Shown in pieces: positions 25,374 to 26,559 of a stretch of DNA of 64,000 nucleotides. A program made the position numbers and the translations under genes. The notes under the pieces were generated by a model. That model was not told the origin of the DNA, ran no database searches, and saw only the letters and a program-made list of their open reading frames with translations. Origin of the DNA: Escherichia coli (GTDB lineage: Bacteria; Pseudomonadota; Gammaproteobacteria; Enterobacterales; Enterobacteriaceae). The stretch lies in NCBI RefSeq assembly GCF_044647545.1, contig NZ_CP172818.1; one strand, 5' to 3'. The first letter of the stretch is position 1, and each line of letters begins with the position of its first letter.

Positions 25374-25512
25374 GGTCTTCTCGCAAGTCGAAAAATATGA
25401 CGCTACTTTAGCGTAATTGCTTGATTTTGTCGCTGATGGCGAAGGAGAAGAAAATTCAGGAAATGGATAAAGTAGTTATTTAGAAATGAGATATTTTTGA
25501 AGGAAATTTTTT

Positions 25513-25538
25513 GGAGAAGATGGTGCATCCGGGAGGAT
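25513..25538 (-). repeat. 26-nt direct repeat of the argQ 3' end region (truncated extra tRNA-Arg unit)
   Basis: ggagaagatggtgcatccgggaggat at 25513-25538 is identical to 25645-25670, which covers the 3' end of argQ. Confidence 0.7.
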
Positions 25539-25652
25539 GACTCACTGGCGTTCGCCCTTCGGGCCGTTGCTGGCCGGCGTTATCCTCCCTGGTGCCTGCG
25601 GTTAATACCGCTACCTCTTCGATATCTTCATTGCTGAAGGTTACGGAGAAGA

Positions 25653-25729
25653 TGGTGCATCCGGGAGGATTCGAACCTCCGACCGCTCGGTTCGTAGCCG
25701 AGTACTCTATCCAGCTGAGCTACGGATGC
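25653..25729 (-). tRNA. argQ: tRNA-Arg (anticodon ACG)
   Basis: Reverse complement is GCATCCGTAGCTCAGCTGGATAGAGTACTCGGCTACGAACCGAGCGGTCGGAGGTTCGAATCCTCCCGGATGCACCA (77 nt, CCA encoded). Confidence 0.95.
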
Positions 25730-25792
25730 ATCGGGAAAATTTATTTTATTGCTGATATTGATACCGCTACTAAAGCCATATCAAGTAAGAGA

Positions 25793-25869
25793 TGGTGCAT
25801 CCGGGAGGATTCGAACCTCCGACCGCTCGGTTCGTAGCCGAGTACTCTATCCAGCTGAGCTACGGATGC
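25793..25869 (-). tRNA. argZ: tRNA-Arg (anticodon ACG)
   Basis: Identical 77-nt tRNA-Arg copy. Confidence 0.95.
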
Positions 25870-25931
25870 ATCGGGAAATTTATTTTACTGCTGATATTGA
25901 TACCGCCACTAAAGCTATATCAAGTAAGAGA

Positions 25932-26008
25932 TGGTGCATCCGGGAGGATTCGAACCTCCGACCGCTCGGTTCGTAGCCGAGTACTCTATCCAGCTGAGCT
26001 ACGGATGC
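25932..26008 (-). tRNA. argY: tRNA-Arg (anticodon ACG)
   Basis: Identical 77-nt tRNA-Arg copy. Confidence 0.95.
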
Positions 26009-26071
26009 ATCGGGAAACTTACTTTACTGCAGATTTTTTGATACCGCCACTAAAGCCGTATCAAGTAAGAA

Positions 26072-26148
26072 TGGTGCATCCGGGAGGATTCGAACCTCCG
26101 ACCGCTCGGTTCGTAGCCGAGTACTCTATCCAGCTGAGCTACGGATGC
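26072..26148 (-). tRNA. argV: tRNA-Arg (anticodon ACG)
   Basis: Identical 77-nt tRNA-Arg copy. Confidence 0.95.
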
Positions 26149-26151
26149 AAA

Positions 26152-26244
26152 TGGCGGTGAGGCGGGGATTCGAACCCCGGATGCAGCTTTTGACCGCATA
26201 CTCCCTTAGCAGGGGAGCGCCTTCAGCCTCTCGGCCACCTCACC
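26152..26244 (-). tRNA. serV: tRNA-Ser (anticodon GCU), long variable arm
   Basis: Reverse complement is GGTGAGGTGGCCGAGAGGCTGAAGGCGCTCCCCTGCTAAGGGAGTATGCGGTCAAAAGCTGCATCCGGGGTTCGAATCCCCGCCTCACCGCCA (93 nt). Confidence 0.95.
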
Positions 26245-26559
26245 ACACGTCTCTTACGAGTGCTTCGAAGAACTTGTTTATCGCTCATCGTCGCTGCGTG
26301 GCGCACATATTACTTTCTGAGACTTATAAGTCAAACAATTTTTCCCACACTTTTATCGTTTGCACACTTCACGCTCAATTAGTCTGTAAAAACGTCAAAA
26401 AGAGTGTTTTATCAACAGAAAAACGGAGGTCTGACAGATAGCAGTAATGCAAAAAAATGGAGACTTAAGTTGAATGAACGGGAGTAAAGCGAAAAGACAA
26501 TGGAGTGAAAGAGAAATTTTGAGGGTGCGTCTCACCGATAAAGATGAGACGCGGAAAGA

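What the first reader, a model, noticed from the sequence alone, without database searches (positions are those of the whole stretch)
25653..26244. Four identical tRNA-Arg genes in tandem with near-identical spacers
argV, argY, argZ and argQ are 100 percent identical 77-nt copies. They are separated by spacers of about 62 bp that are themselves nearly identical (atcgggaaa[a/t]ttta[t/c]ttt...gata ccgc[t/c]actaaagc[c/t]atatcaagtaagaga), indicating recent tandem amplification or concerted evolution. The repeat period is about 139-140 bp and generates long artefactual ORFs on the opposite strand.
Basis: seen in the sequence. Interest (0 to 1): 0.2.

Follow-up and report, generated by a model that had tools for sequence, protein, structure and literature searches.

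The report
E. coli arginine tRNA gene array
This is the well-known E. coli operon of one serine and four identical arginine tRNA genes; the array is old and reshuffles between strains, and a small structured RNA element that ends in a copy of the tRNA's tail lies just downstream.

Summary
Four 100% identical 77-nt tRNA-Arg(ACG) genes lie on the minus strand, separated by 63/62/63-nt near-identical spacers. This is the known E. coli serV-argVYZQ operon between csrA and yqaB.

"Recent tandem amplification" is not supported. Each spacer carries a position-specific signature shared with K-12 and other strains, and Enterobacter has the same serV plus four-gene array (Kosakonia at least two of the genes), with identical tRNA sequence. 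Concerted evolution is supported by variants shared between neighbouring spacers and by units that are alike within a genome but differ between genera.

The uniform 62-nt spacers are a minority arrangement, found in about 22% of 5,425 complete E. coli genomes. K-12 has 198/62/198-nt spacers. The extra ~135 nt is a structured module, "X", that ends in an 18-nt copy of the tRNA 3' end. The window keeps one X, downstream of the last gene (25521-25652). Among 18 sampled genomes, copy number ranges from 2 to 5 and X count from 0 to 4.

X is a sub-threshold relative of the RtT RNA of the tyrT operon. The same conserved core occurs after tRNA-Tyr, Arg, Lys and Pro genes and 5S rRNA genes, each time fused to that gene's own 3' end.

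Verdict: an ordinary, already-known locus with a modestly interesting side observation.

The parts
26152..26244 (-). serV, tRNA-Ser(GCU), first gene of the operon
   Evidence: ARAGORN; Rfam tRNA 56.8 bits; annotated tRNA-Ser in the 99.9%-identical ECONIH1 record
26072..26148 (-). tRNA-Arg(ACG) copy 1 (position of K-12 argV), 3 nt after serV
   Evidence: identical to K-12 argV
26009..26071 (-). Spacer S1 (63 nt) with the position-specific signature ATCAAAAAATCTGCAGTAAAGTAAG
   Evidence: the same signature occurs at position 1 in all 18 arrays with three or more copies (window included)
25932..26008 (-). tRNA-Arg(ACG) copy 2 (argY position)
25870..25931 (-). Spacer S2 (62 nt)
25793..25869 (-). 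tRNA-Arg(ACG) copy 3 (argZ position)
25730..25792 (-). Spacer S3 (63 nt)
25653..25729 (-). tRNA-Arg(ACG) copy 4 (argQ position), last gene
25521..25652 (-). X module: a 132-nt RtT-like structured element directly after the last tRNA. It ends in an exact 18-nt copy of the tRNA 3' end including CCA (25521-25538). The conserved core GCAACGGCCCGAAGGG is at 25555-25570.
   Evidence: 93.5% identical to a copy of the module in K-12. K-12 copies match Rfam RtT at 23-31 bits, below the cut-off of 45. Predicted fold z = -3.4. Hairpin 1 is disrupted in this copy, and it gives no Rfam hit.
25513..25538 (.). Distal copy of the exact 26-nt direct repeat (tRNA 3' end 18 nt + 8 nt of trailer). Its partner is at 25645-25670. 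Likely substrate for loss or gain of X by recombination.
   Evidence: family D2, 100% identity; strains lacking X at a given position are deleted exactly between such repeats
26307..26334 (-). Predicted sigma-70 promoter of the operon (TTGACT, 16 nt, TAATAT) followed by a GC-rich discriminator (GCGCC), about 60 nt upstream of serV
   Evidence: consensus scan only; 2 sites found against 2.3 expected, so weak on its own; sequence read
25400..25414 (-). Weak terminator-like hairpin followed by a T-run, between X and the yqaB start codon
   Evidence: 1 found against 1.4 expected; not independently supported
25792..26160 (+). Longest of the spurious antisense ORFs (122 aa), with a repeated peptide that reflects the tRNA repeat
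   Evidence: no Pfam match above threshold

Best explanation
This is the E. coli serV-argVYZQ stable-RNA operon. One promoter upstream of serV is inferred to drive a single precursor carrying tRNA-Ser(GCU) and four copies of tRNA-Arg(ACG). This is the major arginine tRNA, which reads CGU/CGC/CGA after A34 is edited to inosine. The precursor is cut in the spacers and the encoded CCA ends are trimmed. Four copies provide gene dosage. The array is ancient, shared at least with Enterobacter. The genes stay identical through purifying selection on the tRNA, and repeat units are homogenised by gene conversion and unequal crossing-over between the 77-nt genes. The same recombination, together with recombination between each true tRNA 3' end and the 18-26 nt pseudo-3'-end that closes the ~135-nt X module, creates the strain-to-strain differences: 2-5 gene copies, and X present at none, some or all positions. 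The window shows the variant in which X has been lost from (or never gained at) all internal positions and remains only after the last gene. X itself is a shortened, unannotated relative of RtT RNA. It is predicted to fold into an acceptor/T-arm-like helix that encloses three small hairpins and ends in ACCA. By analogy with rtT it would be released from the precursor as a ~130-nt RNA with a tRNA-like 3' end. Its function is unknown. Shown: gene identity, synteny, architectures, positional orthology, shared variants, homology of X to RtT. Inferred: co-transcription, processing, the recombination mechanism, release of an X RNA.
For: Identity and anatomy. Locus identity: 99.9-100% to E. coli ECONIH1 with csrA/alaS and yqaB/yqaA flanks; K-12 annotation serV, argV, argY, argZ, argQ. 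Architectures in 18 genomes plus the window: 2, 3, 4 or 5 copies; spacers of 62-64, 102 or 197-199 nt; trailers of 147, 210 or 279-282 nt; all tRNA copies identical except one with a single mismatch. About 22% of 5,425 genomes are collinear with the window (1,241; 1,205). Long spacer = X + S, with X ending in the tRNA 3' end. Positional orthology of S1-S3, the A-to-G variant shared between paralogous spacers, and identical adjacent spacers in 5-copy strains. Enterobacter cloacae has serV + 4 Arg genes and Kosakonia at least 2 (in a 1.3-kb stretch), with tRNA identical to E. coli; their X copies are nearly identical within each genome, and similarity of the E. coli X 5' part to the Enterobacter one is confined to the last ~18 nt. 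X to RtT: Rfam hits over the full model at 31.0, 29.2 and 22.8 bits, and a shared core seen directly against the K-12 tyrT repeats. In most elements with an upstream tRNA in the fetched DNA (about 35 of 44), the element ends in an exact 18-19 nt suffix of that tRNA; the rest have diverged ends. Compensatory changes in hairpin 3. Strong predicted folds of intact copies, z = -6.5 and -5.7. Dosage matters: deleting argYZQ lowers tRNA-Arg2 16-fold (PMC13170351). 3' maturation of Arg2 depends on RNase T/PH (PMC3378859).
Against: Promoter and terminator are consensus matches at chance frequency. No transcript data were examined, so co-transcription and release of an X RNA are inferred. The direction of change (X lost or X gained) is not resolved. 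Some copy-number differences, such as O157:H7 with 3 or 4 copies, could be assembly collapse of a 140-bp repeat. The window's X has hairpin 1 disrupted and gives no Rfam match, so in this strain it may be decaying rather than functional. All Rfam RtT scores are below the family's cut-off.
Confidence: 0.88

Rival explanations
1. Recent tandem amplification: the four units arose in this strain or its recent ancestors by repeated duplication of one tRNA-plus-spacer unit, which is why genes and spacers look almost identical.
For: Spacers 2 and 3 differ at only a few positions. Truly recent unit duplications do occur in other strains: Z1002 and O2:K2:H1 C237-04 have 5 copies with two identical adjacent spacers.
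Against: Spacer 1 differs from spacers 2 and 3 by a block (AAAAAATCTGCAGTAAAGTAAG) that is found at position 1 in all 18 arrays with three or more copies (window included), with or without X. Four copies occur in K-12 and most sampled strains, and in Enterobacter. tRNA identity is explained by conservation between genera.
Confidence: 0.04
2. The pseudo-3'-end and X are the scar of a phage or genomic island that integrated into a tRNA-Arg gene and was later almost entirely deleted.
For: An 18-nt direct repeat of a tRNA 3' end is the classic signature of integration at a tRNA gene. The break point falls in the T-loop, a known integrase target (own knowledge, not tested here).
Against: Only 106 nt lie between the repeats and there is no integrase. 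The same conserved core with compensatory hairpin changes follows Tyr, Lys, Pro and Arg tRNA genes and 5S rRNA genes in many genera. Units occur in tandem. In a scan of 2.9 million viral contigs, the only real elements were in host DNA flanking a Mu-like prophage or in the tyrT repeats.
Confidence: 0.05
3. The uniform short spacers or the copy number are an assembly artefact of a 140-bp repeat.
For: Repeats longer than a short read can be collapsed or mis-joined. O157:H7 strains differ between 3 and 4 copies.
Against: The window's arrangement is reproduced base for base in about 1,200 independent complete genomes. Each spacer is distinguishable by its own variants, which would anchor an assembly.
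Confidence: 0.03

Closest known systems
E. coli K-12 serV-argV-argY-argZ-argQ operon (tRNA-Arg2)
   Same: Same flanking genes, same gene order and strand, same tRNA-Ser, and tRNA-Arg sequences with 0 mismatches. Spacers S1-S3 are positional orthologues.
   Different: K-12 has X modules after argV, argZ and argQ (spacers 198/62/198 nt). The window has X only after the last gene (spacers 63/62/63 nt).
tyrT-tyrV operon with its 178-bp distal repeats and rtT RNA (Rfam RF00391, K-12 gene rttR)
   Same: A repeated module inside a tRNA operon that ends in an 18-19 nt copy of the operon's own tRNA 3' end including CCA. It shares the core ACGTTGC-nnnn-GCAACGRCCCGAAGGGCGA...GAGTAATCC, and its outer stem is built from the tRNA's T-arm.
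   Different: The Arg version is shorter: it lacks the inverted T-arm copy and the CTCGAGCG/CGAGAG hairpin. It scores below the Rfam cut-off (23-31 bits against 45) and is not annotated in any of the 18 E. coli records examined. It sits between genes as well as after the last one. No tpr-like ORF is involved.
Concerted evolution of tandem stable-RNA genes (classically described for rRNA repeats)
   Same: Paralogous units are more alike within a genome than between genera. Derived variants are shared between neighbouring units. Copy number is polymorphic.
   Different: Homogenisation is slow relative to strain divergence: position-specific spacer signatures persist across the species.

Membership tests
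serV-argVYZQ operon of E. coli | Canonical tRNA-Arg genes with anticodon ACG and a tRNA-Ser(GCU) gene | tested here: met
   ARAGORN; Rfam tRNA 67.1 and 56.8 bits
serV-argVYZQ operon of E. coli | Position between csrA and yqaB, all genes on one strand | tested here: met
serV-argVYZQ operon of E. coli | tRNA sequences identical to K-12 argV/Y/Z/Q | tested here: met
   0 mismatches in all four copies
serV-argVYZQ operon of E. coli | Same spacer architecture as the reference strain K-12 | tested here: not met
   63/62/63 nt against 198/62/198 nt; this is an allelic variant of the same locus
serV-argVYZQ operon of E. coli | Co-transcription from one promoter | not testable with these tools
   Only a consensus promoter match at 26334-26307. 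The literature treats it as one operon (PMC13170351).
RtT RNA (Rfam RF00391) | Reaches the Rfam gathering score (45 bits) | tested here: not met
   K-12 copies score 31.0, 29.2 and 22.8 bits; the window copy gives no hit at E<=10
RtT RNA (Rfam RF00391) | Lies downstream of a tRNA gene in its operon and ends in a copy of that tRNA's 3' end with CCA | tested here: met
   18-nt exact copy at 25521-25538; the same rule holds in most elements with an upstream tRNA, about 35 of 44
RtT RNA (Rfam RF00391) | Conserved core hairpins | tested here: inconclusive
   The core 16-mer is present, and hairpin 2 and the outer stem are intact. In the window copy, hairpin 1 is broken at 4 of 6 pairs and hairpin 3 is weak. 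K-12 and Enterobacter copies have all three hairpins.
RtT RNA (Rfam RF00391) | Released as a discrete stable RNA by precursor processing | not testable with these tools
   No transcript data available
Integrative-element attachment-site scar at a tRNA gene | Direct repeat of the tRNA 3' end | tested here: met
Integrative-element attachment-site scar at a tRNA gene | Element genes or an integrase between the repeats, or a matching site on a phage or island | tested here: not met
   106 nt with no ORF of note; the viral contig scan found only host flanks
Tandem array under concerted evolution | Units more alike within than between genomes, variants shared by paralogues, and copy-number polymorphism | tested here: met

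The most novel reading that the evidence does not exclude
The RtT core (hairpin ACGUUGC-n4-GCAACG, then CCC-GAA-GGG, then a variable hairpin) may be a portable cassette. In Gammaproteobacteria it sits inside a duplicated 3'-terminal segment of whichever stable RNA gene precedes it: tRNA-Tyr, Arg(ACG), Lys, Pro, and also 5S rRNA. It would spread and be lost by recombination through those duplicated ends, and it is maintained as a structured RNA with a so far unknown role at the ends of stable-RNA operons. The arg-operon X modules, including the one in this window, would be reduced members. [quoted passage not shown] I did not find the 5S rRNA association, or the rule 'always fused to the cognate 3' end, broken in the T-loop', described in the literature I could search.
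Probability: 0.3. Interest if true: 0.45.

Novelty: already known. Interest (0 to 1): 0.2.

Why it matters
The array itself is textbook. It supplies the major arginine tRNA, and its dosage matters: deleting three of the four copies lowers tRNA-Arg2 16-fold. Three points are useful. First, the reference K-12 layout is not universal. Copy number (2-5) and spacer content vary between E. coli strains, which matters for tRNA-pool models, for strain engineering of this locus and for assembly quality checks. Second, gene names borrowed from K-12 should be applied by position, not by assuming K-12 spacing. Third, an unannotated RtT-like element is part of the repeat and explains the length polymorphism. 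If the wider pattern holds, with one conserved RNA cassette fused to the cognate 3' end of several tRNAs and of 5S rRNA, it would give a concrete handle on the long-unexplained RtT RNA.

Tried and rejected
1. I first read the BLAST spans as meaning 1-3 gene copies in most strains. Fetching the loci showed this was wrong: the spans reflect the presence of X, not gene loss.
2. A flank-to-flank query meant to read array length for 60 evenly sampled genomes failed, because the pieces were not joined across the array. I sampled 18 loci directly instead.
3. The idea that the 5' part of X is a diverged copy of the S spacer is not significant: 137 of 2000 shuffles score as well.
4. The phage attachment-site scar idea was rejected.
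5. Rfam hits to 'Plastid-ycf2', 'Plastid-psbl-rps4' and 'HPnc0260' on the plus strand are antisense-tRNA look-alikes far below their cut-offs.
6. Literature: Withers et al. 2006 (tRNA gene evolution in E. coli) and Bosl & Kersten 1991 (rtT) are not held. A search for spacer-derived RNAs from this operon found nothing relevant. Whether the arg X modules were described earlier therefore remains open.
7. About two thirds of the matches to the 16-mer in the genome and viral scans are chance hits inside coding regions of unrelated phyla. They were removed by requiring the hairpin partner.

Full report
THE OBSERVATION. The window holds four tRNA-Arg(ACG) genes on the minus strand, at 25653-25729, 25793-25869, 25932-26008 and 26072-26148. 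A tRNA-Ser(GCU) gene lies at 26152-26244. The four Arg genes are identical over all 77 nt. The spacers are 63, 62 and 63 nt, and Ser and the first Arg gene are 3 nt apart. Tandem Repeats Finder gives period 140, 3.6 copies and 96% matches. Rfam scores each gene at 67.1 bits against the tRNA model. However, its coordinate range includes serV, which the text does not mention, and it missed a fifth, partial copy just outside the range. That copy is part of an exact 26-nt repeat (the last 18 nt of the tRNA plus 8 nt of trailer) at 25513-25538 and 25645-25670. The plus-strand ORFs of 75-122 aa are real as ORFs but none reaches a Pfam family threshold, and they encode a peptide that repeats with the tRNA period.

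WHAT THE LOCUS IS. The region is 99.9-100% identical to E. coli ECONIH1 and lies between csrA/alaS and yqaB/yqaA. In K-12 the same position carries serV, argV, argY, argZ and argQ. It is therefore the known serV-argVYZQ operon. Transcription runs right to left in the window, so the gene next to serV corresponds to argV and the leftmost to argQ. A promoter-like site lies about 60 nt upstream of serV (TTGACT, 16 nt, TAATAT, followed by a GC-rich stretch). A weak terminator-like hairpin lies just before yqaB. Both are consensus matches at chance frequency, so I treat them as predictions only.

THE SPACERS ARE NOT THE K-12 SPACERS. K-12 has spacers of 198, 62 and 198 nt, and a 280-nt trailer. Dissection shows three building blocks:
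- T: the tRNA gene.
- S: the 62-64-nt spacer.
- X: a ~135-nt module that ends in an exact 18-nt copy of the tRNA 3' end, including CCA.
A long spacer is X followed by S. K-12 reads T-XS-T-S-T-XS-T-X, and the window reads T-S-T-S-T-S-T-X.

Eighteen E. coli genomes sampled across the similarity ranking, plus the window, gave at least eleven arrangements:
- 2 copies: G1/2.
- 3 copies: O157:H7 Z1814.
- 4 copies: most strains.
- 5 copies: Z1002, IPCEC42, O2:K2:H1 C237-04.
- X at no position (Br_167, C237-04) up to all four positions (ET76).
- Partly deleted forms: a 102-nt spacer and a 210-nt trailer.
About 22% of 5,425 complete genomes are collinear with the window over the whole locus (1,241; 1,205). 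X occurs 1 to 6 times per genome, with a median of 3. Where X is missing, the deletion runs exactly from the true tRNA 3' end to the pseudo-3'-end. This points to recombination between these short direct repeats.

AMPLIFICATION OR CONCERTED EVOLUTION. Recent amplification is not supported. Spacer 1 carries a block (ATCAAAAAATCTGCAGTAAAGTAAG) that distinguishes it from spacers 2 and 3. That block is found at position 1 in all 18 arrays with at least three copies (the window included), whether X is attached or not. The window's spacers are therefore positional orthologues of K-12's, and the four-gene array predates the species' diversification. Enterobacter cloacae also has serV plus four Arg genes, and Kosakonia cowanii has at least two in the short stretch fetched. 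Their tRNA sequence is identical to E. coli's (0-1 differences). Identity of the genes therefore needs nothing beyond purifying selection.

Concerted evolution is supported by three findings:
- A derived A-to-G change (TAGTGGCGG) is present in both spacer 1 and spacer 2 of the window, ECONIH1 and C237-04, and in spacers 1-3 of IPCEC42. Other strains have A at every position.
- The X copies within Enterobacter or within Kosakonia are nearly identical to each other, whereas the E. coli X 5' part resembles the Enterobacter one only over its last ~18 nt.
- Five-copy strains carry two identical adjacent spacers, which marks recent unit duplication.
Homogenisation is thus real, but slower than strain divergence.

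WHAT X IS. The K-12 copies of X give full-length but sub-threshold matches to Rfam RtT: 31.0, 29.2 and 22.8 bits against a cut-off of 45. Direct comparison with the K-12 tyrT locus shows a shared core, ACGTTGC-nnnn-GCAACGRCCCGAAGGGCGA...GAGTAATCC. In each operon the enclosing stem is built from that operon's own tRNA: GGGGAAGGAT/ATCCTTCCCC for Tyr and GGGAGGAT/ATCCTCCC for Arg. Intact copies are predicted to fold strongly and in the same way in E. coli and Enterobacter. There are two 5' hairpins, then an acceptor-like helix stacked on a T-stem-like helix that encloses three small hairpins, then a free ACCA end (-60.3 kcal/mol, z = -6.5; -57.2 kcal/mol, z = -5.7).

The window's own copy is 93.5% identical to a copy of the module in K-12, and it contains the core 16-mer. 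That 16-mer occurs once in 64 kb, against 0.09 matches expected even with two mismatches allowed. However, hairpin 1 is mutated (CGTTGC to CGCCGG), the only such case among 48 aligned elements. It folds less well (z = -3.4) and gives no Rfam match. At most 90 genomes share an X copy at least 99% identical to it. None of the 18 E. coli records examined (17 RefSeq pipeline annotations plus K-12) annotates any RNA at X.

THE WIDER FAMILY (SIDE OBSERVATION, PARTLY FOLLOWED UP). It returned about 60 elements that also have the hairpin partner, all in Gammaproteobacteria; the remaining matches were chance hits in coding regions. In most elements that had a tRNA gene upstream in the fetched DNA (about 35 of 44), the element ends in an exact 18-19 nt suffix of that same tRNA; the rest have diverged ends. 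The tRNAs are Tyr-GTA, Arg-ACG, Lys-TTT and Pro-TGG, and the break falls in the T-loop.

A further set of elements lies 60-130 nt downstream of 5S rRNA genes. This was confirmed with Rfam. These elements are bracketed by a copy of 5S GAGAGTAGG and a 13-21 nt copy of the 5S 3' end plus trailer. In one genome a G-to-A variant in the gene is mirrored in the pseudo-end. Hairpin 3 shows compensatory changes in 11-17 of 48 sequences. Hairpins 1 and 2 are invariant, but partly because of how the set was collected.

[quoted passage not shown] It also reports several RtT loci in Klebsiella (PMC4147364) and variable RtT content between Erwinia strains (PMC7542023). The tRNA association is therefore at least generically known. 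I did not find the 5S association or the cognate-3'-end rule described, but key older papers were not available.

RIVALS. A phage or island scar would explain a duplicated tRNA 3' end. However, only 106 nt lie between the repeats, and the core is conserved and structured across operons and genera. The only 'viral' contigs with real elements turned out to be host DNA beside a Mu-like prophage, or the tyrT repeats themselves. An assembly artefact is unlikely for the window's arrangement, which recurs in about 1,200 genomes. It cannot be excluded for individual copy-number outliers.

HOW IT WORKS (BEST ACCOUNT). One precursor is made from a promoter upstream of serV. Endonucleolytic cuts in the spacers and 5' maturation free the tRNAs. 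The encoded CCA ends are trimmed by exonucleases; Arg2 precursors accumulate without RNase T and PH (PMC3378859). A34 is then edited to inosine. Four copies give dosage: removing three lowers tRNA-Arg2 16-fold (PMC13170351). The repeat structure makes the locus recombine. Exchange between 77-nt genes changes copy number and spreads spacer variants. Exchange between a true and a pseudo 3' end removes or adds X. X is probably released as a tRNA-tailed RNA like rtT, and its function remains unknown.

VERDICT. The added value is the strain-level polymorphism and the recognition of an unannotated RtT-like module as part of the repeat.

Noticed in passing
L102:89-360, L022:1-230, L096:1-260 (also L036, L099, L101): The RtT core also occurs just downstream of 5S rRNA genes. 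It is bracketed by a copy of 5S 'GAGAGTAGG' and a 13-21 nt copy of the 5S 3' end plus trailer. In L096 a G-to-A variant of the gene's 3' end is mirrored in the pseudo-end.
   Followed up: partly
L033:300-1700, L089:2000-2520, L159:12200-12712, L045:230-500, L021:7400-7900: Lys-, Pro- and Tyr-type elements form tandem arrays with periods of 143-178 nt. In the Lys and Pro arrays each unit carries its own pseudo-3'-end followed by an intrinsic terminator hairpin.
   Followed up: partly
window 25571-25585 (minus strand, within X): Hairpin 1 of the window's X copy is mutated (CGTTGC to CGCCGG), the only case among 48 aligned elements. At most 90 of 5,357 genomes have an X copy at least 99% identical to it.
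   Followed up: partly
window 26071 (first base after the CCA of the first tRNA-Arg): Spacer 1 is 63 nt here (TTCTTAC...) but 64 nt (TCTCTTAC...) in ECONIH1 and other strains. This 1-nt deletion is the only difference from ECONIH1 seen in the array.
   Followed up: no
L059:10353-10476: Citrobacter youngae has a short-form element whose 5' stem strand (GAAGGAT) matches the Tyr/Arg type while its 3' end is that of tRNA-Lys. It looks like a chimera, which suggests exchange between elements of different operons.
   Followed up: no
L166:4300-4837 (minus strand): An E. coli-like 'viral' contig in which unrelated DNA, with an ORF fragment ending in a Cys-rich motif, is joined to the middle of a tyrT rtT repeat. 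It looks like an insertion into the repeat array.
   Followed up: no
L025:3441-3517 and L185 (GPEC1031, first tRNA-Arg copy): Two single-base variants within otherwise identical arrays. Enterobacter copy 3 has A-to-G at position 27 (GAGTGCTCGG). One E. coli strain has one mismatch in its first copy. Either could be a new mutation not yet homogenised or a sequencing error.
   Followed up: no
L184 versus L189 and L195: O157:H7 strains differ in array content: Z1814 has 3 copies (64/62), while YB14-1 and GTVSS-023 have 4 copies (64/62/102). This is either a very recent deletion or an assembly collapse.
   Followed up: no
window 25655-25729 and the other three tRNA-Arg genes, plus strand: Rfam gives sub-threshold hits to 'Plastid-ycf2 5'UTR' (33.4 bits against a cut-off of 65.7) on the strand antisense to each tRNA-Arg. 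These are tRNA look-alike matches, not real features.
   Followed up: yes
L003 and L191 trailers (210 nt), compared with window 25521-25652: Some strains have a trailer in which X is cut short exactly between two GCACCA motifs (...GCAGGCACCA|TCTTCTCC...). Even 6-9 nt repeats inside X appear to act as deletion end points.
   Followed up: partly
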